Shown piece after piece: positions 7,997-48,656 of a stretch of 64,000 nucleotides of DNA; position 1 is the stretch's first letter, and each line of letters opens with the position of its first letter. The DNA is from Patescibacteria group bacterium. GTDB lineage: Bacteria > Patescibacteriota > Doudnabacteria > UBA920. Under the pieces are notes generated by a model. That model was not told where the DNA came from. It made no database searches and worked only from the letters and a program-made list of their open reading frames with translations. The DNA is taken from the NCBI GenBank assembly GCA_023484515.1, contig JAMDAY010000030.1:1320-65319 (forward strand), written 5' to 3'. The position numbers and the translations under genes are program-made.

Positions 7997-8042
7997 ACTA
8001 AAATATAAGCTTGTAAATTTTGAAAAACGCTCCTGAAGGAGC

Positions 8043-8070: not shown

Positions 8071-8235
8071 CTTTTGCTTACCTTAGGGCTTCCCATTGTA
8101 ACTCTGGGTTTTTGGCCGTCAAGGGTAAAACCTTTTTATCTGCCGTCAGCCATAAATCGGTTTTAATCCCTGTGACTGCCAAAACATTCCAGAGTTCTTT
8201 TGCTTGCCATAACAAGTTAAGCAAAAAGGAGTTTT

Positions 8236-8718: not shown

Positions 8719-8807
8719 AAAGCTACTAAAGGAGGAAAATATATGGTAATGCGCTTTACCCCAGCCCACCCGTGCGTGCGCATTTATCTATAAACTCCCA
8801 ATAAGTA

Positions 8808-9353: not shown

Positions 9354-9369
9354 AAGTTCAATAAAATAT

Positions 9370-10128: not shown

Positions 10129-10142
10129 AAGGCAATAGATAA

Positions 10143-12984: not shown

Positions 12985-13001
12985 AGGGGTTTTGGTTTAG
13001 G

Positions 13002-15240: not shown

Positions 15241-15270
15241 AGGCTAATGTGGTTAATAATTATCTTGGCT

Positions 15271-15642
15271 TTAAGCATTAGACTTTATGCCAACCAGGCC
15301 TAAGACATACAGGATGAGGCCAATGATAAAGATGGCAGCAAAAGTTATGCCCACGCCCACGACCGTGGATCTCAGTCCGGCCTTGGCTTCTTGGGACTTG
15401 ATGGGATCAGAGCCTGAAGACTGCAGCTTAATGCCGTACCAGGCAACCATGATGACCGCGTAGAGGACGGCAATGCCGAAGATGACCCCGATACCGATAT
15501 TGGCAAAATCCCGAACCGGTTTCATTTTATCTGACTCCCAGACTGACATGTCTGGTTTGGGCAGTTCCTGGGCAAGCGCGATTGAGGCGGTTAAAAATAG
15601 GGCGGAGACACTGGCCCCAAGTGAAGCAATAAATTTTTTCAT
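15271..15642 (-). CDS. T4SS pilin-like protein (VirB2/TrbC-like): signal peptide plus two hydrophobic segments
   Basis: A 123-aa protein with a signal peptide (MKKFIASLGASVSALFLTASIALAQE) and two TM segments (IGIGVIFGIAVLYAVIMVAWY and VVGVGITFAAIFIIGLILYVLGLVGI). It lies in the T4SS-like operon. Confidence 0.55.
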   Translation of the reverse strand: MKKFIASLGASVSALFLTASIALAQELPKPDMSVWESDKMKPVRDFANIGIGVIFGIAVLYAVIMVAWYGIKLQSSGSDPIKSQEAKAGLRSTVVGVGITFAAIFIIGLILYVLGLVGIKSNA

Positions 15643-15727
15643 TGTTGTTACGTTAGTGTATTAATAATTGAGATACCCTAAAGATATATTCGCTCTCAGC
15701 TATCATTGGAATAGATGTAATTGTTCA

Positions 15728-16615
15728 TCATAAAAAATTAAATAACTTAATTCTTTGGGTAATTTCAGCTTTGAGCAGCCCGTCTTTACTTAACCTAACT
15801 GTGCTTTCTGTTGCATAAATTGGTTCTAAAAATTGCTTGGCTCCGGCAATTAAGTCCAAGTGGGTAGTGACAATGTTGAGTTTTAGAAGGCCAGGGCGGT
15901 TCATAAAAATATTGAGCCAAAAGGAGCGCTCCATCCCTTGGGTTTGGAACACTAACCGCAGAGTGTATTGTTCAGAGTTTTGCAAAGCAAGAAAGTCCCA
16001 GTACCTTTGGACCTTATTAAGCAAGGATTCGTTGGATTTTCGGGTGCGCTCAAATTCCGTGTAAACTTTGTACTCCGCCTGGCTGGTCTTGTAAACTACG
16101 GTGTAATCGGGGGTTAAGGCTTCCACACGTTTGTCGCTTATATAGTCTTGTGTTTGCGAACTGTCTTCGCCTTTAAAGCTAAAACTTAAATTTGCAGACT
16201 TGTTCAAGCTTTCCAAACTGGCCAGCTCCACGATTTGGGCTTCATGCTTGAACAATCCCCAGGACAGCAAAGTCTTGGCTGTCGGGTAATTTTTCAGGCG
16301 CTGCCACTCATACTGGCCACACTCAGTCAAGACTTTTAGTCCTTGTTTGGAAAGCATATAAAACAGCGAGAAGCCGCCGCCGGAAAAAACCTTAAAGCTT
16401 TCCAAAAGTTTAGCCTGCCACATTCGGCGGAGTTTGGTATACATGTACCGGCTCCGCTCTTTTTGGCTGAGGAACCTGGTAATATGGCAGCTGGAGGCCA
16501 GCCTAAACTCCAAGACTAAAGCCAAAATCTCCAACGCGGACTGGTTTATTTCCACGTTATACGGGCTTACGTTAGCCCTGGGGGTGAGTTTTACGTCAAG
16601 GGTGTTTAAATACAT
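15728..16615 (-). CDS. hypothetical protein (possible winged-helix / relaxation-accessory protein)
   Basis: A 295-aa soluble protein lying between the coupling-ATPase and pilin genes. No decisive motif was seen. Confidence 0.45.
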   Translation of the reverse strand: MYLNTLDVKLTPRANVSPYNVEINQSALEILALVLEFRLASSCHITRFLSQKERSRYMYTKLRRMWQAKLLESFKVFSGGGFSLFYMLSKQGLKVLTECGQYEWQRLKNYPTAKTLLSWGLFKHEAQIVELASLESLNKSANLSFSFKGEDSSQTQDYISDKRVEALTPDYTVVYKTSQAEYKVYTEFERTRKSNESLLNKVQRYWDFLALQNSEQYTLRLVFQTQGMERSFWLNIFMNRPGLLKLNIVTTHLDLIAGAKQFLEPIYATESTVRLSKDGLLKAEITQRIKLFNFL

Positions 16616-16632
16616 ATTTTAGTTTTGCTAAA

Positions 16633-19320
16633 TTAAAAATTTACTGCAGCCGGTGCCCGTTCTTTGTCTGGCTCAAAGGTAGTGTGCCTGCCCATGAGCT
16701 CCCGGAAAATTTGCTCCCTTTTAGCCGAGTAATAAATGCCGTTGATATTGTCCCGTTTTTGTTTTATGACTTCCAAAGGCGTGCCATAGCTTTCCATGGT
16801 TTCTTTAATGAAATATTCTTCCGTGTCCCTTAAAATGTCTTTGGGATGGGGAGTTTTTTGGATATTGATGGACATGGCGTCTTGCGGCACGCCTTGGACT
16901 AAAGTTTTGAGGTAAGCCGTGCCGGTCGGCAGGTTAATAATGTCTTCCACGGTAATCCTGCCGCCTAATATCTTTTCGGCGATTTCACTGTCTCCGACTG
17001 ACTGGGTGCGCATGAAGATTTTGGTGGCAATGTTGGACTCAATGGATTTTTGGATGCGCTCGTCCAGTTGGCCCATGAATTGGTTGGAAATGACCAAAGC
17101 GGTGTTAAACGCCCGAACTTCGGAAAACAGGGTTTCAAAGATGTCGCTGGCCACCCTTTGGAACTCGTCAATAACGAACACACACGGTTTGCGGTCTTCG
17201 CTATTCAGCCTGGCTTGGCCGAAAATTGCTTCGGCAATATGGGCGGAGAGGTATACCGAGTAGTACTTTTTCAGCTGCTCGCTGGATGAGCCAAAGTTGG
17301 CAATAAAGATCTTGCCTTGCTTGATCATGTCTTCAAACGTAATCTTGGTTTCCAGACGGTCGGCAATGTTCATGAATTCCTGGTAATCCAAAAATTTGCC
17401 GATCTTGTTGTTGGTCGTGGCCAAGTACCTGGCAAGGTCGTTATTGGAACGCTTTAAGATTGAATCCGTCCAAAAGCTTTGCAACCTTAAGGGCAGGTAC
17501 TTTAAGAGGTTCTTTATTTGGTTGGGTTCGTGCAATAGCTGGTCCAGACCCGAGAGGGACTGGGCAGGCAGCACGTAAGCCGTGGTAAACAGCTGCCTTA
17601 AGATGTTTTCCAGTTCCGGGCCCCAGGAGTTAGCTGAATCAATCTGCACGAACCGCTTCATAATGGAGATTAAAAAGCCTAAACGCTCTTCGTCGCTTTT
17701 GTCCCCGGAAAACTGTGAAAAGAAGGGAAAGCTTAAAGGCTTGTCTTGCTGTTTGGAGGGATTAAAGTAAACTACATCCGCTTTCCGTTCTTCGGGGATC
17801 ATGGTTAAAAGGTCTGTGGCAAAGTCGTTTTTGGGGTCAATAACCAGGCAGGCGGCTTTGTCCTTGCCTGTTTTTTGCAGGACGTGGCTTAGGATGGTTT
17901 TTAAAGTTTCGGATTTGCCGCTGCCAGTGCCGCCAAGAATATAGACATGCTTTTTCATGTCGTCCCAGGTCGGGATGCCAATTTTGGTGTCTTCCTGCAT
18001 GCGGAAGTTAGACTTGCCCAGCTCCACGTAGAAGCTGTCGTCGTATTCGCGCATTTGCTGGCTGGCGGGTTTCTTTTTGAACTTAACAGTCTTAACCGAA
18101 GACACGGTTTGGTCATTGGTATCAGGCAGGTGCCAGAGGGAAAATAGCTCAATGTCAGAAATCACTTGCCCGAAATTCTGGTAGCCTGAAAAAGGCCATA
18201 ACCATAATTTTCGGGTTCTTAAAACCGGCTTGGTGTCTATAATTTGCCGCAGTTGCCCCGAGGTTGCCAAATCCTCCACCTGCCTGGTAAACAGTCTTTT
18301 ATGCTTGAGCATGTTCATGTTCTTTTGGTTGACCTCTGTCAGCACCCCCTGGATGTTGGCCAGTTTTATTTCCGCGTCTTCCGGGGTTTCGGAAACCGCC
18401 CAGTAAGAAATAATGGTTTGAAACAGGGAGGCTTTCATTTTTTCTTCCATGGCAATCTTCAGCGAACTGGCCAAGTCCGAAACAGGCTCCTTTTTGTAGG
18501 AAGGGGTTTGTTTGGCCGCTTGGGCCACTTCTTGCTGCGCCCGTTCCTGGTCTTCAATCAAGTAGTGGATGATTTGGTTGAAGTAATGGGAAGAAGGGGA
18601 GATGAGGATGTTGTAGGCCATAAACCGGCCCTTGGCCAGCGCTTCCATGGTGGAGATAACGGAATCCACGGGGTCGGAGGACACGTCCTTGAAGGTTTTT
18701 ACCCGGTGGTAAAACTTGCCCTCAATGGTGGTTTGGCCGTAACTCAAATAACTTTTTTGATACTTGGCCACCTCTGCCAAAACCGCGTCTTTGTCTAGCA
18801 TGGTGATTTCGGCATTGGGATAGGCATTAAAAATAGCCTTTTCCATCCGTTGGAAAAAGGCTATGGGGATTTGGAGGCGAAAGGATATGTAAGGGTATTG
18901 GGCCCAGACCTGCATCGTGAAAAATACTTGTTTGGCCAGGGCAACTTTCCAATGGCGGTAGAGCTTCTGGAAGAAGTAAAAATACCTGGAAAATTGGTGC
19001 GGCCCTTCAATCGGATCTTGGTAGACCGAATGGAAGGCCTTGAGGATTTTTTGCTGGATCTGGAAGGCTGTGGTTTGGGAGTCTTTGGGAATGGTAATTT
19101 CAAAATACAGCGTTTTGGGGAATTCTTTGTCTAAATCCTTGTTTTTTATTTTAATTTTTTCAAAAGCGTGGAAAATATCAAGGCGGTAAAGGGAGAAAAG
19201 CTGGTAGAGGGAAAATAGAAAAATGGTGCCACAAAGGGTCAATATTCCAGTCGTCCATTCCCAAGTGGGGATTTTCCTGACTGTCTCTAACCACAGCTGG
19301 TAGCCAATGTTATTAGGCAT
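16633..19320 (-). CDS. virD4: type IV coupling protein-like ATPase (VirD4/TraG/TraD family)
   Basis: An 895-aa protein with an N-terminal TM region, Walker A (YILGGTGSGKSETL) and Walker B (PCVFVIDEFQRVASD) motifs. It is the first gene of the minus-strand T4SS-like operon. Confidence 0.65.
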   Translation of the reverse strand: MPNNIGYQLWLETVRKIPTWEWTTGILTLCGTIFLFSLYQLFSLYRLDIFHAFEKIKIKNKDLDKEFPKTLYFEITIPKDSQTTAFQIQQKILKAFHSVYQDPIEGPHQFSRYFYFFQKLYRHWKVALAKQVFFTMQVWAQYPYISFRLQIPIAFFQRMEKAIFNAYPNAEITMLDKDAVLAEVAKYQKSYLSYGQTTIEGKFYHRVKTFKDVSSDPVDSVISTMEALAKGRFMAYNILISPSSHYFNQIIHYLIEDQERAQQEVAQAAKQTPSYKKEPVSDLASSLKIAMEEKMKASLFQTIISYWAVSETPEDAEIKLANIQGVLTEVNQKNMNMLKHKRLFTRQVEDLATSGQLRQIIDTKPVLRTRKLWLWPFSGYQNFGQVISDIELFSLWHLPDTNDQTVSSVKTVKFKKKPASQQMREYDDSFYVELGKSNFRMQEDTKIGIPTWDDMKKHVYILGGTGSGKSETLKTILSHVLQKTGKDKAACLVIDPKNDFATDLLTMIPEERKADVVYFNPSKQQDKPLSFPFFSQFSGDKSDEERLGFLISIMKRFVQIDSANSWGPELENILRQLFTTAYVLPAQSLSGLDQLLHEPNQIKNLLKYLPLRLQSFWTDSILKRSNNDLARYLATTNNKIGKFLDYQEFMNIADRLETKITFEDMIKQGKIFIANFGSSSEQLKKYYSVYLSAHIAEAIFGQARLNSEDRKPCVFVIDEFQRVASDIFETLFSEVRAFNTALVISNQFMGQLDERIQKSIESNIATKIFMRTQSVGDSEIAEKILGGRITVEDIINLPTGTAYLKTLVQGVPQDAMSINIQKTPHPKDILRDTEEYFIKETMESYGTPLEVIKQKRDNINGIYYSAKREQIFRELMGRHTTFEPDKERAPAAVNF

Positions 19321-19823
19321 AGTAAGCAGAAGTTAAATATTCATGCGTACAGTTACTAGCCCTCCCCGGCGTATTTCTGTCCCGCCGCTTCGCGGCGGGC
19401 AACTCTTCCCCCCATCTTTCCTCTCCAGTCTTTGGGTTTGTTTTTAGGTTTTGGTTTTAGTTAGATATTGGAATTTAGGTATTTGGAATTAAGACAAGAT
19501 AATAGGTTAAGGTAAGAATAGATAGTATTGATGTTTAGTAGAGTTAGTATAGATACTAGTCGTTCAGTTGATTCTCTGGTGAGATAGTAGCCACTGGTAA
19601 GGGATTATTAGAACATCAATAGACACAGGTGATTTAGAAGATTTGCTAGTACAATGGGGTTGCACTATTGGTTGTACTAGCCAGCCGCTGGTTCCATAGC
19701 TCCAGCTTAATAGAAAAATCCCTGATTAGCAAGGGGTAGTTTGCCAGCTTGTCAAGAAGACAAGGCTAGCAGGCCAAGGTCAGGGGTTTTGCATAAAGTA
19801 GGTTTTAGCAGCGTTCAGGATTT

Positions 19824-19950
19824 TCCACCAAGGGAAACTTTCAGGATTTTTAGAATTTTTTTTGGTCGCTTCGCTCCCATTGCAAACGGGGGGAAATGCA
19901 GTTTGAGCCAATATTTCTGCGTGCAAATCCCACGGCGGAAGAAAACGCAA
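19824..19950. repeat. left copy of a perfect 127-bp inverted repeat flanking the recombinase/Ubl cassette
   Basis: By base-by-base comparison, 19824-19950 equals the reverse complement of 24074-24200 over 127/127 positions. Confidence 0.95.
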
Positions 19951-20051
19951 GCGCTTGCCCCACCCTCCCGTGCGCGCGCTAACGCAGCTCCCTATATATT
20001 ATTAAGAGATTAAACAAAAATTTAAAATAATAGCCATAAATGATAGCTATT

Positions 20052-20387
20052 TTAATTTACCCAAACGATCTTATTATCTCTAATCCAAAAGTGACTACCA
20101 CAAGTTCCATATCCTCTCCATAAGGACGGCATTAGCGTTACTCCTTTATTGCTTCTTGTTAGTCTCCAAACTGGATAAATGCTTTTCATCAAATTTACTT
20201 CAATTTTATCGCCACAGCCACACGGACAGGAAAATACTAACCACTTTAAGTGACCCTCATTGACTACTATATAAAAATAGGAACCAAGTCTATCTGGTAG
20301 TTCGTTCAACGATTTAATTTCCCTTGCCTGACCTAACTCACTCTTGCGTTGCCACTTTTTTACTAACTCTTTAAGCCAATTAAACAT
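20052..20387 (-). CDS. small Cys-rich protein (CPCGCG ... CGSHF; possible Zn ribbon), last gene of Ubl-E2-E1 operon
   Basis: A 111-aa protein that overlaps the JAB-E1 gene by 8 bp, indicating translational coupling. Four clustered cysteines are present. Confidence 0.5.
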   Translation of the reverse strand: MFNWLKELVKKWQRKSELGQAREIKSLNELPDRLGSYFYIVVNEGHLKWLVFSCPCGCGDKIEVNLMKSIYPVWRLTRSNKGVTLMPSLWRGYGTCGSHFWIRDNKIVWVN

Positions 20388-21762
20388 TTTGGCTCCAAAC
20401 GGTATCCAGGAAAGGGGTAGTGTCGCCCCTGCCCCAGTTATTTTTATTAGCGCAAAAACAATCGGCCTGTGGCTTTTGCGTGGTTGTTATAACTTTAGCT
20501 CTATCAAAAAAGTAAAGATATTCATTAGTCTCCCTTGCTCCCATAAAGCCGGTAAGTCTTTGTATCATTTCCGACACGGCCGCCGCGGCTACTGAAGAAG
20601 TGAAAGTAATTACAGCCGGTGCAGGCTCAGCTAATTCCGGCGCGTAACCCTCTTGTCTCCTAACAGCTGCTTCTGTCGGGTTTGTCGCTTGAAGTGATTC
20701 CGCTAACATACTTTGCGAGTTAAGTCTCTCACGACAAAGTAAACAAGCGTTTGAGGGGAAAAGGGTTGTTACTCTTCCTAAAATAGACTTTATGTTACCA
20801 TCTTGGGAATCAATTAATACCGCCATATCAATTACCGGAATGTAATAGTAGATAGAGAGTGTATTTAGCAAAGAACGTCCCCACTCATCATCTGTGCAAG
20901 CAAAAACCAAATCACAATTTCTTAATTCTTTAATTGCGACTTGGTTAGTAATGTTAGTTTCGCAAGTAATTACCTTGGTTCCAAGACCCTTGCTATGAGC
21001 TGACCGTTCCGCAATTTTAGTCTTATGGTGCCCTTCGTCCGATAAGAGAGAACCATAAACTCTATTTACGTTTGATTTTTCAAAAGCTTGCCCGTCAAAT
21101 AGTCTTAAGTCGCCAACACCCAACCTCATTAACTGCTCTGCAACTGCGGAACCCGTCCCACCAAGACCCACGATGCCAATCCTTAATTTTTGTAATAACT
21201 TTTGAATATCCTTGCCAAAAGCCCTGATTTGTCGGTCAAAAGAAATCTCGTCTAGGAGTTGCCCCTCGTTGTTATAAAAGAATTTAAACCTATTTCCAAT
21301 AACTCTAATAACTTCCATTGGGTAGCTTTGTCCATCTGCGAGCCAAACTCTACCAATTGGTTTTGTTGGAGAGGAAAAAACTAGGCTGCCGTGTAAATTA
21401 GAACGAGTAATTCTATTATAAGTAGTGCGGAATAATTTCTGCTCTTCCTTGTCATCTTGAGTAGAAAAATTAGGGGTAGTTTCTGGGTGCGAATGGACAA
21501 AAACAAAACTACGCTTTGTATTGTTAGCCTTTTTCAAAGCCCGCATAAACGAAGTTGACGGGATTGACAGACTGGTCGCCGAAGCACTTTCCAGTTCATT
21601 CGGCATTACTGGAATAACCTCTTGCACCAGTAACCTTGAATCCTCACTACCACTAGAAGGTCTGCATAAAAGATAAGCAGCCCGCTCCGTGGATGCATCT
21701 TTAAAGAGATGCTCAATGAGCTGACTGTATTCTGGTTCTAAAAAGGTTAAAGAATAACGCAT
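20380..21762 (-). CDS. JAB/JAMM deubiquitinase-like domain fused to ThiF/MoeB-type E1-like adenylyltransferase
   Basis: The N-terminus (FVFVHSHPETTPNFSTQD) matches the JAMM signature HxHx7Sx2D exactly. The middle (RIGIVGLGGTGSAVAEQLMRLGVGDLRLFDGQAFEKSNVNRV) is a ThiF Rossmann/GxGxxG fold. The C-terminus has CLLCR and CFCAN CxxC pairs, as in the E1 zinc motif. Confidence 0.8.
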   Translation of the reverse strand: MRYSLTFLEPEYSQLIEHLFKDASTERAAYLLCRPSSGSEDSRLLVQEVIPVMPNELESASATSLSIPSTSFMRALKKANNTKRSFVFVHSHPETTPNFSTQDDKEEQKLFRTTYNRITRSNLHGSLVFSSPTKPIGRVWLADGQSYPMEVIRVIGNRFKFFYNNEGQLLDEISFDRQIRAFGKDIQKLLQKLRIGIVGLGGTGSAVAEQLMRLGVGDLRLFDGQAFEKSNVNRVYGSLLSDEGHHKTKIAERSAHSKGLGTKVITCETNITNQVAIKELRNCDLVFACTDDEWGRSLLNTLSIYYYIPVIDMAVLIDSQDGNIKSILGRVTTLFPSNACLLCRERLNSQSMLAESLQATNPTEAAVRRQEGYAPELAEPAPAVITFTSSVAAAAVSEMIQRLTGFMGARETNEYLYFFDRAKVITTTQKPQADCFCANKNNWGRGDTTPFLDTVWSQNV

Positions 21763-21765
21763 TGT

Positions 21766-22167
21766 TTACTTGCTCAAATCATTTTTAATAGAGCTGATAT
21801 AAGTTCTCAAATTATCTTTTCCAGCTCTCCATTGAGATTGGGAAAGATGACGAGACCAGCGTTGCCAAGGTATCTCGTCGTAAGTTTCGTGAACATCTGC
21901 TTTGTCGGGAAGATTACCGTTTGCCAGTTTTACATCAGGATAGGTATAAAACATATCTGGGTTAGCATTGGGGTAGCCAGCTGGAACTCTGATTAGTAAC
22001 TTAACGCTCGCTAGGTTGTATTTTTGTGGCGGTAATAAAAATTCCTCAATGGTAAGATGAACCATACCGTTCACGGATATGGTTTTATATTTATACTGCT
22101 TTTCATCCAAAAATTCTATATCAAATTCCGGAAGGAGTGGTTGATTTGTCCCGTCATTTTCAGGCAT
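21766..22167 (-). CDS. E2/UBC-fold-like protein (UEV-like: YPN motif present but no cysteine in whole ORF)
   Basis: A 133-aa protein lying between the Ubl and E1 genes, as in bacterial Ubl-E2-E1-JAB operons. It carries VPAGYPNANPD, an HPN-like motif, but the ORF encodes no Cys. Confidence 0.5.
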   Translation of the reverse strand: MPENDGTNQPLLPEFDIEFLDEKQYKYKTISVNGMVHLTIEEFLLPPQKYNLASVKLLIRVPAGYPNANPDMFYTYPDVKLANGNLPDKADVHETYDEIPWQRWSRHLSQSQWRAGKDNLRTYISSIKNDLSK

Positions 22168-22417
22168 TGATGGAGCCTGGGTTTAAAGTTTTGGGACCGC
22201 TGTGAAATTGGGTACCATTTTTAAAAGTATACTCTTTGCTGTCGTTCGGAATGGGTTCGTCATCACCAGGACCAGGGATTTCCATTAATAGATTATAATC
22301 CGCTCCAATACCTGCCAGAGTATAAAGAGCTACGCCTGTAATCGGATTCTTAATTTTATATTCCTTCTTATCGATATGGATTACAACCTCATCATGTTGA
22401 TTGTCACCATGGGCCAT
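22160..22417 (-). CDS. small ubiquitin-like (beta-grasp / multiubiquitin-family-like) protein
   Basis: An 85-aa first gene of the operon, overlapping the E2-like gene. Its sequence (VVIHIDKKEYKIKNPITGVALYTLAGIGADYNLLMEIPGPGDDEPIPND) fits a beta-grasp fold. It has no C-terminal GG; it ends NPGSINA. Confidence 0.5.
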   Translation of the reverse strand: MAHGDNQHDEVVIHIDKKEYKIKNPITGVALYTLAGIGADYNLLMEIPGPGDDEPIPNDSKEYTFKNGTQFHSGPKTLNPGSINA

Positions 22418-22663
22418 ACATTCCTTTCCGTTCCCGAATATTAAAGTTTTTTCGGAAACATTGCCTTTATTTTAACACAAAATTGCCTTAATTACCAGAA
22501 GAATATATCTACCCCAGTCATTTTACTCCAAGGTTATTTTTATGACATCCAAAATATGATATAATACCTATGCGACAAACTAACCAACGAGTTTTTTAAT
22601 GGCCGTCTTTGGAAATAAATCCAACTTGTTGGGTTTGTCGCACCAAGGGCGGTCATTATTAAT

Positions 22664-24391
22664 TTGACTAGTATGGCTATTAAATATTTTTTATATGCGC
22701 GTAAATCCACGGAAGACGACGATCATCAAATAATGAGTATTGAAGCTCAGTTATTTGAATTGCGCGAATATGCCCGCAGGGAAAAACTAGAGATTATAGA
22801 AGAGTTAACTGAATCTAAAAGCGCTAAGAAGCCAGGCAGAATAAAATTTGGCGAATTGATGGATAAAATAGAAGAAAGTAACGGTGTTGGAATTCTCGCT
22901 TGGCACCCCGACAGGCTTGCCCGTAATTCCGTTGATGGCGGAAAAATAATTTATTTTGTAGATACCAAAAAGATTGTTTCCTTGCGCTTTCCCACTTTTT
23001 GGTTTGAACCAACACCGCAAGGTTTGTTTATGCTGCAAGTGGCGTTTGGTCAAAGCAAATACTATACAGATAATCTTGCCGAAAACATTAATCGGGGTTT
23101 TCGTCAAAAAATCAGGCGCGGCGAATGGCCGACAAAAGCCCCGTTCGGATACGTTAATAATTTTAAAACTCGTACTATCGAGCCTCATCCCTTTCAATCT
23201 AAAATAGTGGTCAGGGCTTTTGAGGAATTTGCCACGGGAAAATATACCTATGAAAGCCTGGCGGATTTTATGGCAGAGTTGGGAGTGGAAACCAAGAATC
23301 AAACGCCGCTTGGCAAAGCTTCTATTTGGAGAATGTTGACCAATCGGGCTTATTTAGGACTTACTAAGCATAAGGGCGAATATTTTGAGGGCAGCTTTCC
23401 GGCGATTCTTCTCCCCGCAACTTTTGATGCTGTCCAGGCGGTTCTAAAGCGAAAAGCTAGGCCGCGCAAAAGCAAGCAGGCTTTGGACTTTCCGCTGACT
23501 GGTCTTTTGACGTGTGGAGAATGCGGCTGTGCCATTACGGGTTGCAATGTAACTGGCAGGCACGGTCATAACTTTCGTTATTATCGTTGTACCAGAAAGA
23601 AAAATAAATGCTTGCAAGGCAGTTTGCAAGAGCGGCAGCTTGCGATTCAGCTCAAGAGCGAGCTTCAAAAAGTTGCCATTTGTGATAACTGGACAGACAA
23701 AATGCTCCAGCAGATTTCGGTTTGGGAGAAAGAAGAAACCAGTTCATCAAAAAGCCCTGTCCAAGACATAAAAAATAGTTTGGATAAAATTCAGGACAAG
23801 CTTAACCGGTTGGTTAGCGCTTACATTGACCAAGAAATTCCCAAAGAAATTTACTTGGTCAAAAAGGAAGAACTGCTCAAACAAAAGCTTGTCCTAAGCC
23901 AAGCTCTAAAGAATCTTGGACAGGAAGGTGGAGTGTGGATTAAACCCCTCCGGCAGTGGATTTTAGACGTAAAAGAAGCCACTTTCGTGGCTTCTTCGAG
24001 TGATCTATCTGAAGTTAAACAGACCGTTCAAAAGTTAGGATTAAACCCCCAACTTTTGGATAAGAATGTAAAATTGCGTTTTCTTCCGCCGTGGGATTTG
24101 CACGCAGAAATATTGGCTCAAACTGCATTTCCCCCCGTTTGCAATGGGAGCGAAGCGACCAAAAAAAATTCTAAAAATCCTGAAAGTTTCCCTTGGTGGA
24201 GATGGCGGGAGTTAAACCCGCGTCCAGAACGAATCAATTTTCCCATTGTTCACAAGATTAGCCAGTTCATAAGCCTTAATGACAAGAGCTGGCAAGATAT
24301 CATTAAGGTTGATTTACTAAAGCTTGAGCTGGTCAGCGCAAATCAAACCGACCGGCCGCAGCCTCTAATGAAGCCGCTAATTTATCTTTGA
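22664..24391 (+). CDS. large serine recombinase (resolvase/invertase N-domain + recombinase domain + Zn ribbon); ORF reads through the right inverted repeat
   Basis: The N-terminus (YARKSTEDDDHQIMSIEAQ) contains the catalytic Ser region of serine recombinases. The zinc ribbon is CGECGCAITGCNVTGRHGHNFRYYRC. The conserved domains end near aa 470, exactly where IR-R (24074) begins. The remaining 105 codons lie in or beyond the repeat. Confidence 0.8.
   Translation: MTSMAIKYFLYARKSTEDDDHQIMSIEAQLFELREYARREKLEIIEELTESKSAKKPGRIKFGELMDKIEESNGVGILAWHPDRLARNSVDGGKIIYFVDTKKIVSLRFPTFWFEPTPQGLFMLQVAFGQSKYYTDNLAENINRGFRQKIRRGEWPTKAPFGYVNNFKTRTIEPHPFQSKIVVRAFEEFATGKYTYESLADFMAELGVETKNQTPLGKASIWRMLTNRAYLGLTKHKGEYFEGSFPAILLPATFDAVQAVLKRKARPRKSKQALDFPLTGLLTCGECGCAITGCNVTGRHGHNFRYYRCTRKKNKCLQGSLQERQLAIQLKSELQKVAICDNWTDKMLQQISVWEKEETSSSKSPVQDIKNSLDKIQDKLNRLVSAYIDQEIPKEIYLVKKEELLKQKLVLSQALKNLGQEGGVWIKPLRQWILDVKEATFVASSSDLSEVKQTVQKLGLNPQLLDKNVKLRFLPPWDLHAEILAQTAFPPVCNGSEATKKNSKNPESFPWWRWRELNPRPERINFPIVHKISQFISLNDKSWQDIIKVDLLKLELVSANQTDRPQPLMKPLIYL
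24074..24200. repeat. right copy of the perfect 127-bp inverted repeat
   Basis: Reverse complement identical to 19824-19950. Confidence 0.95.
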
Positions 24392-25417
24392 GGCAAAAGA
24401 TAAGGCGGCGCCCTGGCTTAGAATTAAGCGAAGGCAGGCTGGAAAGCAAAGGCGTTAGCCAATGCAGTCTTTACCTTAGAAAATGCGTTAGCATTTATGA
24501 TGCCCAAAAGGATTTCCGAGGCTATTAGGCTTGCTCGTCTTGCATATGGCAAAATGTCAAAGTCCTGTCAAAATCCGTCATCCCCATCCGGATACCTATT
24601 TTAACATATTTTAAAATCACATTCAACCCCTTTTTTATTGTTAGGAAAGTATATATTTAAATATGAATTTAAATATATACTTTTTGGTTATTTAGCTGGG
24701 TTTAATTATTTTCTGTTGACATCGGGGCAGGGATGAGATATAAAATTTATATCAAACATTAAAGGAGAATGCATGAAAATCGTATGGAGGGTTGCTTCCA
24801 TAGTTTGTAAACGGATGCGGCCGTCGGGGGAGGAAAAGAAACGGCGGTGCGGGCGTATTATGCGGAATGCTGCATTGCAGCTGGCTGCGATCAGGCAAGA
24901 ACGCGAGGGCGGTTCCATGTCACTTGGGACGCTTAGGGTCCTGGAAATTATCTGGTGACAGTCCCAGACGGCAGCGTCTGGTGGAGTTATTGGGAGGTTA
25001 TATGAAGACAAGGCAGGACAGGGTTGCAATTTTGAAGCGGAAAGACGATGGGTGGCCGTTGCAAGATGTGGGTTTCCTGGTAAAACGCTTGGAAGTGCTG
25101 GTGTTGTTGGATCCTGAATTTCCCACAGCCCTGGTGCTTTTTGGCAAGTTCAACAAGGGAGCAGTCGCGACAGCGTTGAGAACCCTCAGGGTTGTCTGCG
25201 AATGCGAGGTTGCCAGCAGCCAGAATTTTCAGGAATGCGGCACGCCTTGCTTGCTTCCTGGGAGGACCAGGCAACGGTGATCAAACAAAAACGGCGGGCG
25301 CGAAGGCTTTGCGATCGCCGTTTCAATTTGTCCGGTTTTATGCCGTAGGGGATGGAAAGCCTGTATTATTAAACTTATTATGCCGTCATAAATTAAAAGC
25401 CCAGGAGGACAATATAG

Positions 25418-27852: not shown

Positions 27853-28284
27853 TTATAGGAATTTTTTAATTTCTTTGTTTGTTTCCCGCTTTTTTATATA
27901 TTCCCGCTTGTCGATTTTTTTACGCGCCTTGCCCAGGCCGATTTTAATTTTAACCAAACCGCGGTTGGCGGTAAAAATTTCCAAAGGCACAATGACCAGG
28001 CCTTTTTCCTTGCCCAATAACTGGTTTATTTCTTGCCGGTTTAAAAGCAGCTGCCGCGTAGCCGTGGGGTTGTATTTTTCGTTTGGCGCGTACTTGTAAG
28101 GTCCGATGTGGCAGTTAATTAAACTGACCTGGGCGGGGGATACGGTTACATAACTGCCGGTTAAGGACACGTTGCCGTTTTTGACGGATTTAACTTCCGG
28201 TCCGCTTAAGACCATGCCGGCCTGGAAGGTATTTTTTATGTCGTAATCAAAATTCGCGCGCTGGTTTTTTGCCAATATTTTCAT
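27853..28284 (-). CDS. smpB: SsrA-binding protein SmpB
   Basis: The N-terminus (KNQRANFDYDI) and the lysine-rich C-terminal tail (GLGKARKKIDKREYIKKRE) match the SmpB family along the protein length. Confidence 0.85.
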   Translation of the reverse strand: MKILAKNQRANFDYDIKNTFQAGMVLSGPEVKSVKNGNVSLTGSYVTVSPAQVSLINCHIGPYKYAPNEKYNPTATRQLLLNRQEINQLLGKEKGLVIVPLEIFTANRGLVKIKIGLGKARKKIDKREYIKKRETNKEIKKFL

Positions 28285-34715: not shown

Positions 34716-34980
34716 TCTTTACGGAATACGGATAATTACGGATATACGGTTTTAGAGATGCTTGATCCTTTCCGGCAGTATTGGGTGATGACGCACATCT
34801 GGGACAATCTTCCTTAAGTCTGGTTAATGATGGTTATTATCCGGTAATCTAAAGACCACTTATCCCAGATGTGCGTCATCACTGCCTCTAAAGTCAGGTT
34901 GATAATGATCAATGCCTGGCAATCTCAAGTCTGCTTATCCCTCTTCACACTTTATCCGTATAATCCGTATTCCGTAAAGC
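34716..34980. mobile_element. gene-less MITE-like element filling the ileS-recO intergenic space
   Basis: The terminal inverted repeats are ctttacggaatacggat at 34717-34749 and, reverse-complemented, at 34949-34972. An internal perfect 19-bp inverted repeat tgatgacgcacatctggga lies at 34789-34807, with its complement at 34863-34881. The TIR sequence matches that flanking the GxxExxY gene at 55086/55512. Confidence 0.7.
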
Positions 34981-45848: not shown

Positions 45849-47718
45849 ACAAGGAAAAATTATAATTTCGCTGTTAATTGGCGCACAGCTAGCGCTGCTG
45901 CCTGGTTTGGCTTTGGCGCAAATTCCTTCCGCAAATCCTGTCCCGACTTCGGACAGCGCCAATGGCAGCGGAGGTATTGTGGGAACCGGGGCCAATGCTA
46001 CAGCCGCGGCGGCTTTGGAAGCGCAGGATAAAATCAACCAGGGCCTGGCCAACGGGGAGGCGACATATTTTAAAGGCGACAGCACCGTGCAAATGGGTTT
46101 TGGCGGCCTGGCGTTAATTAGCGGCGGCGCATCGGTGCTGGCGCAGCTTAAGGCGAAAATTACGGCCATTGACGGGTTCATCTTAAGCAGGCAGCAAGTC
46201 CGCAACTCTTTAATGGCCATAGTGACTCCGAACACTTATACTGCCACGCGCAAGCAAATGCTGCTGGAGGAGGTAGACGGGGCCATTAGAAGCTTAAAGG
46301 ACCGCGAGGAGCCTATTAAGCAGCAATTGCAAATGGTGGAACAGGGTTTTTGGAAAACTTTGGTTTACAACATTTTAATTAAAACTACCAAGAGCGTATC
46401 TGACCGGCTGGTTGCCAATCTGACCAATAAATTTAAGATTACGAATTTTTCCAGTTACGCGGATGCCGTTGCCACGCAGGTTTACGACAACCAGTTTATC
46501 CAGAATAATTATAAAGGCAACAACATGGACCAGATGATTGTGCGGTCCATGCTTGTCAATCCTTTGGCCCAGAGCGAGGTTTCGCCCGCCGTTTACCAGC
46601 GGGCGGACGCGGCTCTGGGTTTTGACCCGCACGGCGTGGACGTGTCCGATCCGAATTTTTACAATAAAATGACCCAGGTCGGCTCCGGGCAGGCTAATCC
46701 TTTTTTGCAGCAGGTGGTTTTGGCTGACCAGGCCAATAATATCCATAGCCAGGCTTTGGCTAACGCCCAGGCCGAAGTTGCCCAGAGCAGCGGTTTAAAA
46801 ACTCCCCGCACCTGCACGGGCGTGCTTTCCCAGCAACAGGCAATAGACCAGTCTTATAAAGCGGCCAATAACAAACTGGCAGACAGGCAAAAGCTGCTGG
46901 CAGATTTGCAGGCGGCGCAAATGGCTAATATGGAAGTTAACCCGGACGACATAAAGCAGGCGCAGGCGGACGTGGATTCGGCCGCCAAGGAACTGCAGGC
47001 CTTACCCAAGCAAGTTACCGGCGGCGCAGTGGATATTTGCAAGGACATTGTATCGCCGCCGAGCTTGATAAACAAAGGGATAGACGAAGCCTTTAAATCT
47101 TTGGGGCAGAATTTGGGTAACTATAACGAAAATAACATGCCGTTCTTTTTTAGCTTTATTACTGACGTGGCCAACCAGATTAGCAATAACTTAATTTTTG
47201 GCGGCGGCATAAATTCTTCCCAGTTGCTTAGCGAAAATACCGGCAGCCTGGCCAATGCAACGGCCTTAGGACTGGGTTTTGCGAGCACAAATTCCGGCAG
47301 TTCGGTTGAGAGCGGAATAATATTTAACGATCCCGTAAAGAGCAGTAATTTTCCCGACGCTTATACCTTAAGCTGGGAAGTGATAACGGACAAGTTCCCG
47401 ACCGCCAGTTATGTGACAATTAGAGGCACGGGAATTTCCGACGTCAAACAGGATTCCAGCGGAAATAAAGTCGCCAATAAGTTGCCGTTGTCTGGGAGTG
47501 TTGAGGTGAGGACATCGTCTAATTCTTCTTATACGCTTAAAGTTTACGAAGAGACTAAAGACAGCAGCGGTAAGGTTACGGGCACGAAGCAGTTAGGGTC
47601 GCCTTCCGTAGTGGAGCTGGACGTAGGCAGCGTGAAAGGAGCGTTTATAGATAATTCCAAAGCAGAGCCTGTCCATCCGCGCGGGTTGAAACCCGTGGTT
47701 TCCCCAAGAGGGCAATAA
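45835..47718 (+). CDS. hypothetical secreted protein (627 aa)
   Basis: A signal peptide (IIISLLIGAQLALLPGLALAQ) is present. The ORF overlaps the upstream gene by 14 nt. Confidence 0.5.
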   Translation: MSNNKQGKIIISLLIGAQLALLPGLALAQIPSANPVPTSDSANGSGGIVGTGANATAAAALEAQDKINQGLANGEATYFKGDSTVQMGFGGLALISGGASVLAQLKAKITAIDGFILSRQQVRNSLMAIVTPNTYTATRKQMLLEEVDGAIRSLKDREEPIKQQLQMVEQGFWKTLVYNILIKTTKSVSDRLVANLTNKFKITNFSSYADAVATQVYDNQFIQNNYKGNNMDQMIVRSMLVNPLAQSEVSPAVYQRADAALGFDPHGVDVSDPNFYNKMTQVGSGQANPFLQQVVLADQANNIHSQALANAQAEVAQSSGLKTPRTCTGVLSQQQAIDQSYKAANNKLADRQKLLADLQAAQMANMEVNPDDIKQAQADVDSAAKELQALPKQVTGGAVDICKDIVSPPSLINKGIDEAFKSLGQNLGNYNENNMPFFFSFITDVANQISNNLIFGGGINSSQLLSENTGSLANATALGLGFASTNSGSSVESGIIFNDPVKSSNFPDAYTLSWEVITDKFPTASYVTIRGTGISDVKQDSSGNKVANKLPLSGSVEVRTSSNSSYTLKVYEETKDSSGKVTGTKQLGSPSVVELDVGSVKGAFIDNSKAEPVHPRGLKPVVSPRGQ

Positions 47719-47736
47719 TAAAATAATCTTTAAAAA

Positions 47737-47766
47737 TAGGCCGGCGTTTTGCCGGCCTATTTTTGT
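47737..47766 (+). terminator. Rho-independent terminator
   Basis: The sequence aggccggc-gtttt-gccggcct forms a hairpin followed by atttttg. Confidence 0.8.
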
Positions 47767-47874
47767 TGCGTTAACAATTCGTTTTTTACGATCGCAAAAA
47801 TAAATCTTAAGAACATGTAATTAGTGAAAAAATTATACAATTGTATAATTTTTTCACTCGTAGATTAATTATAT

Positions 47875-48185
47875 GGGGCAAGCAAGGCTTCGTTAGGTCT
47901 CCCATAGGATGCCAGCTTGCCGGACAGGCAGATACCCCCATGGTTTTACACTTTCCGCGTCATTGCGAGGCATGCCGCTTGCGAGCGACGTGCCGAGTAA
48001 AAACATCTGCCTTCTGAACGCCTCAACCGCGGTTGAGGTGTTCCCATTGGGGCAGGCTTAGGGTTTAATTACAAATTATCCTTTGTAGGGGCTGCCCTTT
48101 GGGCGCCTGAACTTGCGGGCAGCTAAAGCTTGCCCCTACATTCTTTATGGCACTTGCCTGCTTTAGGGGGCAAGACTTCCAAGTA
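47875..48185 (+). ncRNA. structured non-coding RNA candidate; possible tmRNA (ssrA)
   Basis: This roughly 310-nt stretch has no ORF and a GC content well above its surroundings. It has dense nested stems: ggggcaag/cttgcccc, tgtagggg/cccctaca, ctgccc/gggcag, and the perfect 18-nt palindrome cctcaaccgcggttgagg. Its 5' end (GGGGCAAGCAAGGCUUCGUUAGG) fits the tmRNA 5' consensus GGGG-N7-GG(A/C)UUCG. smpB is present in the window. A canonical T-arm/acceptor 3' end was not found, so the assignment is tentative. Confidence 0.35.
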
Positions 48186-48317
48186 TTCCGGCGTAACATT
48201 AAAATATGCGGAATAAGCAGCTTAATGAATTGGGCAATAGCTGTGTATTACGGCAAATAAAAAACAAAAATAACCCAAAAGTCGTAAATTTGTCAAAATT
48301 TTGTGTTTTAGTTTTAT

Positions 48318-48656
48318 TTGTGTTATAATTTTGGCATGAGTGAACAGGAAACCAGGGAAAAAATTAAGGAAATTGCCCAGAAAATCGCCGTGGAATTTAA
48401 GCCGGAAAAAATTATCCTTTTTGGTTCCTACGCCTGGGGAAAGCCCGATCCGGACAGCGACGTTGATTTGTTCGTGATTAAGGAAGTTGAAAATACTCGT
48501 GGCTGGGCGGGAAAAATTAGAATGGCTTTATGGGATTATCCAATAGCCATGGATATTTTAGTTTACAATAAGGAAAGATTAGGCAGGAGCTTAAAAAAAC
48601 AAAATTTTTTTATTAAAGATATTATTAGCCAAGGGCAAGTTTTATATGAACGATAG
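48318..48656 (+). CDS. minimal nucleotidyltransferase (MNT) antitoxin-like protein
   Basis: The sequence ILFGSYAWGKPDPDSDVDLFVI matches the GS...DxD motif. Confidence 0.75.
   Translation: MCYNFGMSEQETREKIKEIAQKIAVEFKPEKIILFGSYAWGKPDPDSDVDLFVIKEVENTRGWAGKIRMALWDYPIAMDILVYNKERLGRSLKKQNFFIKDIISQGQVLYER

What the first reader, a model, noticed from the sequence alone, without database searches (positions are those of the whole stretch)
47875..48185. Structured GC-rich non-coding region with a tmRNA-like 5' end
About 310 nt between a terminator and the HEPN/MNT pair has no plausible ORF. Its GC content is well above the flanks. It has many mutually consistent stems (ggggcaag...cttgcccc, tgtagggg...cccctaca, ctgccc...gggcag, and the 18-nt perfect palindrome cctcaaccgcggttgagg). 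Its 5' end (GGGGCAAGCAAGGCUUCGUUAGG) resembles the tmRNA start (GGGG-N7-GG-A/C-UUCG). smpB is present in the window and no other ssrA candidate was seen. No canonical T-arm plus acceptor 3' end and no ALAA-type tag frame was found, so it might instead be another structured RNA or a permuted/two-piece tmRNA.
Basis: partly seen in the sequence, partly recalled or inferred. Interest (0 to 1): 0.55.

Follow-up and report, generated by a model that had tools for sequence, protein, structure and literature searches.

The report
Orphan hairpin-rich spacer, not tmRNA
The flagged 310-base stretch is a real, non-coding, GC-rich chain of hairpins in a Patescibacteria genome, but it is not the tmRNA gene (which lies 23 kb away); it has no relatives apart from one embedded terminator-type palindrome, so it is at most a lineage-specific small RNA or a leftover insert.

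Summary
The physical observation holds. Window 47875-48185 is non-coding, has 53-57% GC against 27-31% in the adjoining intergenic DNA, and folds better than shuffles (z = -4.4 on the + strand).

The tmRNA reading fails. ARAGORN and Rfam both place a canonical one-piece ssrA at 24194-24585 (-), 3.3 kb from smpB (27853-28284). Nothing in the flagged region matches any of 4227 Rfam families.

The region lies in a variable slot. The slot sits between the terminator of a 627-aa gene and the conserved promoter of a MNT-HEPN-TrbL_3 (T4SS-like) operon. Relatives keep the slot empty or hold a PaaX-like gene there.

The element is an orphan. I found no similar DNA or translated ORF in phage, plasmid, viral, metagenome or 5.8-billion-protein searches. 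The exception is the 24-28 nt palindrome at 48016-48043. It belongs to a hairpin family that recurs at gene 3' ends in Candidatus Doudnabacteria.

Without that hairpin the structure signal is modest (z about -2 to -2.8) and gives no strand preference.

Best guess, at low confidence: a lineage-specific + strand small RNA or leader that ends at this terminator-type hairpin. A functionless acquired remnant is almost as likely.

Interest is low.

The parts
47732..47764 (.). Bidirectional terminator hairpin of the upstream 627-aa gene (AAAAATAGGCCGGC-GTTTT-GCCGGCCTATTTTT). It marks the left edge of the variable slot.
   Evidence: I4 (14-nt arms, 100% complementary). The gene ends at 47718.
47823..47858 (.). 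36-nt perfect AT-rich palindrome (AGTGAAAAAATTATACAA/TTGTATAATTTTTTCACT). It carries TATAATTTT on both strands (+ at 47844-47852, - at 47837-47829). It is a candidate -10 element or operator. A + strand start would fall near 47856 (inferred).
   Evidence: I1. TATAATTTT occurs 9 times against 2.1 expected, and the same 9-mer is in the conserved operon promoter. The -35 is poor and there is no TGn, by direct reading. It also explains the Logan contig break at 47852.
47877..47921 (+). Hairpin H1: GGCAAGC pairs with GCUUGCC around an imperfect inner stem.
   Evidence: MFE and centroid structures. GGGGCAAGC can alternatively pair with 48128-48136 (I14).
47922..48015 (+). Long irregular rod. It is closed by AGGCAGAU/AUCUGCCU, followed by GGUUUUAC/GUAAAAAC, CGCGUC/GACGUG and UUGCGAG/CUUGCGA.
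   Evidence: I16.
48016..48043 (.). 14-bp palindromic hairpin GAACGCCTCAACC-GCGG... It is one copy of a hairpin family repeated across Doudnabacteria, (A)ACACCTCAACCGCGGTTGAGGTGT(T). It is terminator-type but lacks a U-rich tail here. It has one G.T position, which gives G.U only in + strand RNA.
   Evidence: I5. 24 distinct contexts were tabulated; 20 are outside any ORF of at least 90 aa and nearly all lie within 100 nt of a gene 3' end. A compensatory variant ACGCC/GGCGT occurs in L113.
48049..48140 (+). Domain H2. GGGGCAGGCUU pairs with AAGCUUGCCCC (48126-48136). The mutually exclusive alternative is UGUAGGGGC (48084-48092) with GCCCCUACA (48132-48140), enclosing CUGCCC/GGGCAG.
   Evidence: I12 and I21. 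Excess structure is weak (z = -2.04).
48148..48181 (+). Hairpin H3 (CUUGCCU / GGGGCAAG).
48267..48296 (-). Consensus-level sigma-70-like site on the minus strand (TTGACA, 18 nt, TATTTT; 10 of 12). It points into the element and would give a convergent transcript.
   Evidence: This is a single consensus match, with 1.3 expected by chance in the 1-kb scan, so it is weak.
48298..48332 (+). Conserved operon promoter (ATTTTGTGTTTTA...TTTGTGTTATAATTTT), with -10 at 48324-48329. The MNT ATG at 48336 is 7 nt downstream, so the mRNA is probably leaderless. It marks the right edge of the slot.
   Evidence: 81-86% identity to the region upstream of TrbL_3 in L003, L007, L008, L010 and L011, and upstream of MNT in L139..
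24194..24585 (-). The genuine tmRNA (ssrA) gene of this genome. It is not part of the element and is listed because it refutes the tmRNA reading.
   Evidence: smpB lies at 27853-28284 (-).

Best explanation
The region is a lineage-specific, non-coding, GC-rich insert of about 310 nt. It sits in a variable intergenic slot of a Doudnabacteria-related Patescibacterium, between the terminator of a 627-aa secreted-protein gene and the conserved promoter of the MNT-HEPN-TrbL_3 (T4SS-like) operon.

It consists of five back-to-back hairpins. The central one is a copy of a palindromic, terminator-type hairpin that recurs at gene 3' ends in this lineage.

Most likely reading: the first half is a small + strand transcription unit.
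- It would start at the TATAAT inside the AT-rich palindrome, near 47856.
- It would end or pause at the 48016-48043 hairpin, giving an RNA of about 190 nt (H1 plus a long rod plus the terminal hairpin).
- Because the hairpin lacks a U tail, some transcripts would read through H2 and H3 towards the operon.
- It would therefore act as a local regulatory small RNA or upstream leader for the T4SS-like operon.

Shown: non-coding nature, composition, hairpins, family membership of the central hairpin, absence from relatives, and that it is not ssrA.

Inferred only: transcription, strand, ends and any regulatory role.
For: - Not coding.
- Composition: GC is 53-57% where the other stretches of the window without a long ORF have 26-45%. 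That suggests either constraint or recent arrival.
- Structure: z = -4.40 for the whole region and -5.07 for 47872-48046 on the + strand, against -3.27 and -3.51 on the - strand. It is the top structural outlier of the window.
- A TATAATTTT 9-mer, identical to that of the conserved operon promoter, lies 26 nt upstream of the GC-rich block.
- The central hairpin belongs to a family that sits 0-100 nt downstream of stop codons, often between convergent genes. That is where terminators sit.
- Its single G.T position pairs only in + strand RNA (direct reading).
- In relatives the same slot holds a regulator gene flanked by palindromes (L003, L010). That fits a regulatory position.
Against: - No homologue of anything but the hairpin was found, so there is no covariation.
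- No Rfam match.
- Syntenic loci of relatives lack it, including L139, which shares the promoter-MNT-HEPN-TrbL_3 arrangement.
- The promoter call rests on a -10 box alone, inside a palindrome. The -35 is poor.
- The hairpin has no U-rich tail here, and no terminator-like site was scored.
- Without the hairpin the structure excess is only z = -2.8 (+) and -2.3 (-), with equal energy on both strands. The strand call is therefore weak.
Confidence: 0.35

Rival explanations
1. Functionless acquired DNA. The segment would be a remnant of a mobile element or of foreign DNA that landed in an insertion-prone intergenic slot. It could have carried a copy of the lineage's palindromic hairpin, or been joined at one. 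Its hairpins would then have no role at this locus.
For: - The slot content differs in every relative examined. It is empty in L005 and L007, and holds a PaaX_M/Cas2-like gene in L003, L010 and L011.
- The element is unique to this genome.
- Structure is moderate once the palindromes are set aside.
- The independent Logan assembly of the same sample breaks on both sides of the segment. The right-hand break at 48208 is unexplained.
- An 11-nt imperfect direct repeat, TATGGGGCAAG/TAGGGGGCAAG, brackets 292 nt (D6).
Against: - No terminal inverted repeats adjoin the direct repeats (direct reading).
- There is no second copy of any part other than the hairpin in the 64-kb window, nor in the collections searched, each of which was probed with only one or two parts of the element.
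- No coding relic is detectable in any frame.
- In a small, dense genome with AT-rich spacers, 55% GC junk should decay, so it would have to be recent.
Confidence: 0.3
2. A DNA-level site rather than an RNA. The cluster of palindromes would be bound or processed as DNA. Candidates are an operator array for the T4SS-like operon, a recombination or attachment site, or an oriT/single-strand-origin-like region.
For: - It contains perfect palindromes of 36 nt (AT-rich) and 28 nt.
- Stems are equally good on both strands for the H1 plus rod part.
- Relatives carry long species-specific palindromes in the same slot, flanking a regulator gene.
- In other genomes the hairpin's TTGAGG arm lies exactly 17 nt upstream of a TATAAT (L024 and L114). 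It may therefore act there as a -35 box or operator.
- The setting is a T4SS-like gene cluster.
Against: - No relaxase, recombinase or regulator gene adjoins it.
- The cluster is a conserved chromosomal one rather than a plasmid.
- In the window no -10 lies 17 nt from either TTGAGG arm (direct reading).
- Nothing about the GC-rich remainder resembles known nic, att or attC cores. Only a loose GTTAGGT was seen, with no matching RYYYAAC partner (direct reading).
Confidence: 0.1
3. Assembly artefact. The MAG contig would join two true flanks through a segment that does not belong there, or that belongs only to a minority variant.
For: The Logan assembly of SRR10267473 carries identical flanking genes on two contigs. 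They end at 47852 and begin at 48208, so the segment is not confirmed by a second assembly.
Against: - The left break is fully explained by the 36-nt perfect palindrome, which exceeds k = 31 (direct reasoning).
- The segment contains a hairpin typical of this very lineage.
- Flanks on both sides are AT-rich spacer rather than truncated genes.
Confidence: 0.08
4. Two tiny convergent protein genes sharing the palindrome as a bidirectional terminator. They would be the + ORF 47841-48017 (58 aa) and the - ORF 48199-48065 (44 aa).
For: - Both ORFs end at or within 22 nt of the hairpin. This mimics the convergent-gene arrangement seen around other copies of the hairpin.
- A minus-strand promoter-like site lies at 48296-48267.
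Against: - Codon-usage scores are -0.41 and -0.32, below all real 50-codon chunks and typical of wrong frames.
- The translations are Cys- and Arg-rich.
- There is no ribosome-binding site by direct reading.
- There are no homologues.
- By my estimate, two such open frames have roughly a 0.2 probability by chance at this GC content.
Confidence: 0.04
5. A tmRNA, a permuted two-piece tmRNA or a tmRNA pseudogene.
For: Only the GGGG start and a UUCG a few bases downstream.
Against: - The canonical ssrA is at 24194-24585.
- There is no ARAGORN or Rfam signal at 47.9 kb, even at E <= 10.
- There is no T-arm, acceptor 3' end or tag frame.
- There is no sequence similarity to the real ssrA.
Confidence: 0.005

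Closest known systems
tmRNA / ssrA (Rfam RF00023 and the permuted alpha, beta and cyano forms)
   Same: It starts with GGGG, it is GC-rich and structured, and smpB is in the same window.
   Different: There is no tRNA-like domain, no tag ORF and no covariance-model score. The genome's real ssrA is 23 kb away.
Repeated palindromic intergenic hairpins that double as terminators. Comparators from my own knowledge: REP/BIME elements of enterobacteria, and inverted pairs of DNA-uptake sequences in Neisseria and Haemophilus.
   Same: The central 24-28 nt palindrome is one copy of a family with identical sequence at many non-orthologous intergenic sites in Doudnabacteria. Most copies lie just after stop codons. 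The element as a whole is a chain of hairpins, like a BIME.
   Different: Only this one hairpin is repeated. The other about 280 nt have no second copy anywhere. Copy number per genome is low: 3 in one MAG. No RAYT-type transposase was seen; the one gene bracketed by two copies in L115 is a CarboxypepD_reg surface protein.
prgQ/prgX control region of Enterococcus plasmid pCF10: Qs and Anti-Q RNAs, with convergent transcription upstream of a Gram-positive-type T4SS operon (PMC3181467; mechanistic details beyond its abstract are from my own knowledge)
   Same: A structured non-coding region lies immediately upstream of a PrgI/TraC/TrbL-type transfer operon. It contains a terminator-type hairpin and, at consensus level, converging promoters.
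   Different: There is no sequence or structural similarity, no prgX-like or peptide gene, and a separate conserved operon promoter lies downstream of the element. No transcript data exist. This is an analogy only.
Orphan, lineage-specific bacterial small RNAs
   Same: Size of roughly 190-310 nt, intergenic position, a possible promoter of its own, a 3' hairpin, and no coding potential.
   Different: No expression evidence, no conservation, and no U-rich terminator tail.

Membership tests
tmRNA (one-piece or permuted) | tRNA-like domain: paired 5' and 3' ends forming an acceptor stem, plus a T-arm | tested here: not met
   ARAGORN finds only 24194-24585. There is no tmRNA-clan hit in 47650-48400 at E <= 10.
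tmRNA (one-piece or permuted) | Tag-peptide reading frame with a resume codon and a stop | tested here: not met
   ARAGORN reports no tag here. The genuine gene encodes ANAFSKVKTALANAFAFQPAFA*.
tmRNA (one-piece or permuted) | Normally a single ssrA per genome, partnered with smpB | tested here: not met
   That position is already filled: RF00023 scores 119.9 bits at 24194-24585, and smpB is at 27853-28284.
Any curated Rfam 15 family (RNase P, 6S, SRP, riboswitches, large ncRNAs, ribozymes) | Covariance-model score at or above the family's gathering threshold | tested here: not met
   The only gathering-level hit in the window is tmRNA. Sub-threshold hits near the element are terminator- or palindrome-driven: IS128 at 30 bits against 80, and miRNA models.
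Doudnabacteria palindromic terminator-type hairpin family (defined here) | Core sequence ACNCCTCAACCGCGGTTGAGGNGT forming a perfect hairpin | tested here: met
   48018-48041 matches with 0 mismatches, against 0.01 expected. 26-33 nt align to family members at 93-97% identity.
Doudnabacteria palindromic terminator-type hairpin family (defined here) | Lies within 100 nt downstream of a gene's stop codon, with an A-run and a T-run as flanks | tested here: not met
   In the window no recognisable gene ends next to it, and the flanks are CTGA.../...CCCATT. The other copies do meet this feature.
REP/BIME or MITE-type mobile repeat (whole element) | Multiple dispersed copies in the genome or in relatives | tested here: not met
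   No second copy was found in the 64-kb window, in 376 kb of related loci, or in the metagenome and viral scans, which tried two other 20-mers. Only about 6% of the source genome was visible.
REP/BIME or MITE-type mobile repeat (whole element) | Terminal inverted repeats flanked by a target-site duplication | tested here: not met
   The 11-nt imperfect direct repeat (D6) is not adjoined by inverted termini (direct reading).
DGR template or variable repeat | A partner repeat differing only at template adenines | tested here: not met
   The window's DGR pairs TR 6576-6722 with VR 5261-5407. The element matches neither, nor anything else in the window.
Cis-regulatory leader or sRNA with antisense control (pCF10 prgQ/prgX-like) | Defined transcripts from converging promoters, with termination controlled at an internal hairpin | not testable with these tools
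   Only consensus-level promoter matches are available. There are no expression data.
Structured ncRNA in general | Base pairs supported by compensatory changes across homologues | tested here: inconclusive
   No homologues exist for H1, the rod, H2 or H3. Only the palindrome shows one compensatory variant (L113 ACGCC/GGCGT against ACACC/GGTGT), and a symmetric protein-binding site would show the same change.

The most novel reading that the evidence does not exclude
The element would be an RNA-based control module for a CPR type-IV-secretion-like operon. It would replace the PaaX-like protein regulator that relatives carry in the same slot. A + strand leader starting at the palindromic promoter and a convergent - strand transcript from 48296-48267 would meet at the palindromic hairpin. 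The competing GGGGCAAGC/GCUUGCC(CC) pairings would then decide between termination and read-through into MNT-HEPN-TrbL_3. Functionally this would be an independent analogue of the pCF10 prgQ/prgX switch.
Probability: 0.08. Interest if true: 0.55.

Novelty: new member of a known kind. Interest (0 to 1): 0.22.

Why it matters
As it stands it matters little. The result corrects a false ssrA lead and leaves one unannotated, orphan, hairpin-rich spacer in a Patescibacteria MAG.

If the RNA reading were confirmed, it would be one of the few candidate regulatory RNAs in a CPR bacterium. It would be tied to the T4SS-like cluster that these episymbionts conserve.

The more general by-product is the palindromic hairpin family. 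An identical 24-26 nt hairpin occurs at many gene ends across Doudnabacteria. This raises the question of how such terminator-type hairpins spread or stay identical in reduced genomes.

Tried and rejected
- tmRNA or permuted tmRNA: rejected.
- Known RNA family: gathering-threshold and permissive Rfam scans gave nothing. The IS128 sub-threshold hit is produced by the upstream terminator.
- I noticed a superficial RNase P-like string (UCCCAUAGG..UGCCAG). With no CM hit and no P4 motifs, I dropped it.
- Similar DNA: none in phages or plasmids. None in IMG/VR for two 19-20-mers. None in JGI metagenomes for TGTAGGGGCTGCCCTTTGGG.
- The genome-collection and second metagenome scans used the palindrome. 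They returned only hairpin copies, plus chance hits in high-GC actinobacteria.
- Orthologous loci: fetched through homologues of the 627-aa protein. None has the element.
- Association with the MNT/HEPN pair: homologues at 60-64% identity lack it. L139 shows the same promoter-MNT-HEPN-TrbL_3 order directly after DUF192.
- Relic of the PaaX-like gene that occupies the slot in relatives: tblastn was negative.
- Coding relic or spurious ORFs on homologous elements: the six-frame query of 5.8 billion proteins was negative. Exact look-up was negative. Pfam was negative. Codon usage is non-coding-like.
- Single-sequence covariance model of 47872-48046, searched over 376 kb of related loci: only the hairpin scores, at 21-30 bits.
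- Relation to the GC-rich spacer upstream of the window's second T4SS-like cluster (19860-19995, which also contains GGGGCAAGC): not significant and unstructured.
- DGR template or variable repeat: no partner.
- Internal tandem duplication: repeat spacings are inconsistent.
- Literature search for Doudnabacteria non-coding RNAs: nothing.

Full report
**1. What was checked first**

ARAGORN on the whole window reports a single tmRNA gene at 24194-24585 on the minus strand, with the tag peptide ANAFSKVKTALANAFAFQPAFA*. Rfam 15 at gathering thresholds reports the same interval as RF00023, full length, 119.9 bits, E = 2.7e-46, and nothing else in the 64 kb. smpB is at 27853-28284 (-) (PF01668, E = 5e-44).

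The premise that no other ssrA candidate exists is therefore wrong. The flagged region is not needed as the partner of smpB. A permissive cmscan (E <= 10) of 47650-48400 gave no tmRNA-clan, RNase P, 6S, SRP, riboswitch or ribozyme match. The listed sub-threshold hits (IS128 at 30 bits against a cut-off of 80, and several miRNA models) sit on the upstream terminator and on an AT-rich palindrome.

Yes, with qualifications.

- The longest ORF in 47841-48260 is 58 aa with a TTG start.
- None of eight ORFs there exists in the 15-billion-protein collection.
- Pfam finds nothing credible.
- A concatenated six-frame translation found no protein at E <= 1 among 5.8 billion.
- Codon-usage log-odds of every ORF (-0.17 to -0.46) lie below all 50-codon chunks of the window's real genes (mean +0.32). 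MNT and HEPN score +0.27 and +0.12.
- Best-of-six-frame scores in 90-nt windows are mostly below the 5th percentile of coding DNA. They resemble the tmRNA gene used as a non-coding control.
- GC is 0.53-0.57 across 47875-48174, against 0.27-0.31 in the spacer on either side. Coding neighbours reach 0.45-0.60, and the window mean is 0.46.
- The + strand of 47870-48190 folds at -133.7 kcal/mol, z = -4.40, with 0 of 100 shuffles as good. The - strand gives z = -3.27.
- In a regression of MFE on GC for all 320-nt windows, the 47.6-48.3 kb area is the strongest outlier on the + strand (residual z down to -4.25).

**3. Dissecting the structure signal**

On the + strand the region reads as five consecutive hairpins:

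| Hairpin | Coordinates | Note |
|---|---|---|
| Rod | 47922-48015 | long, irregular |
| Palindromic hairpin | 48016-48043 | 14 bp |
| H2 | 48049-48140 | two mutually exclusive pairings |
| H3 | 48148-48181 | |

- The first half, 47872-48046, gives z = -5.07 (+) and -3.51 (-).
- Without the palindromic hairpin, H1 plus the rod gives only z = -2.81 (+) and -2.30 (-), with equal energies of -54.0 and -54.2 kcal/mol.
- The second half gives z = -2.04 (+) and -0.97 (-).

So much of the excess, and most of the apparent + strand preference, comes from perfect palindromes. Some also comes from the second half. The window-wide outlier status also includes the neighbouring terminator (47732-47764) and a 36-nt perfect AT-rich palindrome (47823-47858).

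**4. Genomic setting**

The upstream 627-aa protein identifies the source as an NCBI MAG labelled 'Patescibacteria group bacterium' (67-kb contig). Its nearest relatives share only 40-58% protein identity and include Candidatus Doudnabacteria.

The gene order is conserved in L003, L005, L007 and L010/L011: CLIPPER-domain protein, LysM/CHAP hydrolase, UvrD-like helicase, RrnaAD methyltransferase, DUF192, several small genes, the 627-aa homologue, then TrbL_3, PrgI, TraC-like and the rest.

Between the 627-aa homologue and TrbL_3 the content differs:

| Locus | Content of the slot |
|---|---|
| L005, L007 | 198-244 nt of AT-rich spacer only |
| L003, L010, L011 | a 174-180-aa PaaX_M/Cas2-like gene flanked by long species-specific palindromes |
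| Window | the AT-rich palindrome plus the GC-rich element |

A promoter-like block (ATTTTGTGTTTTA...TTTGTGKTATAATTTT) is conserved in all of them. It marks the right edge of the slot.

In the window that promoter is followed 7 nt later by the MNT start codon, so MNT is probably leaderless. L139 has the same promoter-MNT-HEPN-TrbL_3 order, but directly after DUF192 and with no room for such an element. The element is therefore neither part of the toxin-antitoxin cassette nor part of the operon's conserved 5' region.

**5. Search for relatives**

- Nothing similar in the phage or plasmid collections.
- No match for two 19-20-mers in IMG/VR.
- No match for a 20-mer from H2 in JGI metagenomes.
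- No second copy of any part in the window.

The single genome-collection scan used the 18-nt palindrome. Most of its 99 hits are chance matches in high-GC actinobacteria. Five lie in Doudnabacteria MAGs, three of them in one genome, and there the identity extends to 26-28 nt.

The second metagenome scan, with ACNCCTCAACCGCGGTTGAGGNGT, returned 26 stretches. Across both scans I tabulated 24 distinct contexts:

- 20 of the 24 copies lie outside any ORF of at least 90 aa.
- Nearly all have a gene 3' end within 100 nt, often between convergent genes. Examples include the gene ends I read as rplA and rpsI.
- They typically carry A-rich and T-rich flanks.

This is the position and shape of a bidirectional intrinsic terminator. 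In L024 and L114 its TTGAGG arm also lies exactly 17 nt upstream of a TATAAT.

L113 carries the doubly substituted ACGCC/GGCGT form. The window carries the intermediate ACGCC/GGTGT, which pairs as G.U only in + strand RNA.

A covariance model built from 47872-48046 with its MFE structure, searched over 376 kb of related loci, scores only the hairpin (21-30 bits) and never the H1 plus rod part. The element is thus an orphan that contains one copy of a lineage-wide hairpin.

**6. Interpretation**

The data exclude tmRNA, known RNA families, a native coding relic and a high-copy repeat. Two readings of similar weight remain.

(a) A lineage-specific + strand RNA.
- A TATAATTTT identical to the operon promoter's -10 region lies in the AT-rich palindrome, 26 nt before the GC-rich block.
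- A terminator-type hairpin follows about 190 nt later.
- The GC content is maintained in a genome whose other stretches without a long ORF have 26-45% GC.
- The slot holds a regulator in relatives.

(b) A recently acquired, functionless insert in an insertion-prone slot.
- It is unique and has no covariation support.
- Its structure is modest beyond the palindromes.
- It has no U-rich tail.
- The independent Logan assembly breaks on both sides. The left break at 47852 is explained by the 36-nt palindrome exceeding k = 31. The right break at 48208 is not explained.

I rank (a) slightly first at 0.35 against 0.30 for (b). Minor rivals are a DNA-level site, an assembly artefact and two tiny convergent ORFs.

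A consensus-level minus-strand promoter at 48296-48267 permits a more elaborate convergent-transcription model, analogous to prgQ/prgX of pCF10 (PMC3181467). Nothing tests that model here.

**7. Verdict**

- The tmRNA interpretation is refuted.
- 'Some structured RNA' remains possible but unproven.
- The finding is of low interest, as either an orphan sRNA or leader candidate or a remnant.

The most reusable results are the correction of the ssrA location and the description of the Doudnabacteria palindromic hairpin family.

Noticed in passing
window 24194-24585 (-) and 27853-28284 (-): The genuine tmRNA gene (tag ANAFSKVKTALANAFAFQPAFA*) and smpB lie on the same strand, 3.3 kb apart.
   Followed up: yes
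window 1099-7996: A textbook diversity-generating retroelement.
- Target ORF 1099-5379 (1426 aa, no Pfam domain).
- VR 5261-5407 and TR 6576-6722: 147 nt, 89% identical, with all 16 mismatches at TR adenines.
- RT at 6917-7996 (RVT_1).
- ORF 6104-6493 is probably the Avd (not tested).
   Followed up: yes
window 8200-24400: A large serine recombinase ORF (22664-24391 +) overlaps the 3' 198 nt of ssrA on the opposite strand. Next to it lies a second T4SS-like gene set on the minus strand: coupling protein 16633-19320, PrgI 12526-12984 and a TraG/VirB4-like ATPase 10143-12542. The same stretch holds a JAB-ThiF E1 (20380-21762), Prok-E2_E (21766-22167), DUF6527 (20052-20387) and RadC (8236-8718). 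It looks like an integrated conjugative or defence island at ssrA. Its boundaries were not determined.
   Followed up: partly
L024, L025, L035, L041, L081, L111-L136; window 48016-48043: A palindromic hairpin, (A)ACACCTCAACCGCGGTTGAGGTGT(T), is repeated at 24 or more distinct intergenic sites in Doudnabacteria genomes and metagenomes. Most copies lie just after stop codons or between convergent genes. In some loci the TTGAGG arm is exactly 17 nt from a TATAAT. Why the sequence, and not merely the pairing, is identical at non-orthologous sites is unexplained.
   Followed up: partly
L115 459-2299 (the same in L126 5915-7755): Two copies of the hairpin lie 1.8 kb apart. Each is followed inward by about 45 nt that are inverted repeats of one another. 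They bracket a CarboxypepD_reg-domain protein gene and no transposase. It is possibly an invertible or duplicated-terminator segment.
   Followed up: partly
window 34717-34979: A MITE-like non-coding element of about 263 nt. It has 20-nt terminal inverted repeats (CTTTACGGAATACGGATAAT / ATAATCCGTATTCCGTAAAG) and an inner 23-nt inverted repeat. It is the second strongest structural outlier of the window.
   Followed up: partly
L003 9972-10972; L010 2034-3207; L011: In relatives, the slot that holds the element instead contains a 174-180-aa PaaX_M/Cas2-like gene. The gene is flanked by long, species-specific perfect palindromes, for example TTATAATAAAATGCGGCCGCATTTTATTATAA in L010. This is probably a regulator with its operators, upstream of the T4SS-like operon.
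   Followed up: partly
window 48298-48338; L139 3005-3056: The conserved promoter block places TATAAT 7 nt before the MNT start codon in both the window and L139, implying a leaderless MNT-HEPN-TrbL_3 mRNA. In relatives without MNT/HEPN, the same promoter precedes TrbL_3 with a 50-130 nt leader.
   Followed up: partly
window 47852 and 48208 (ends of L002 and L001): The Logan assembly of SRR10267473 splits exactly around the element. The left break is explained by the 36-nt palindrome. The right break has no visible cause and may reflect a population variant or low coverage.
   Followed up: no
window 19333-20051: A 719-nt stretch without a credible ORF lies upstream of the second cluster's coupling-protein gene. 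It has GC-rich ends and contains a GGGGCAAGC, but it is not significantly similar to the element and is not structured (z = +0.35).
   Followed up: partly
window 7921-8240: A structured spacer lies just downstream of the DGR reverse transcriptase (MFE residual z about -3.4 on both strands). It includes a clean terminator hairpin at about 8027-8050. It was not analysed further.
   Followed up: no
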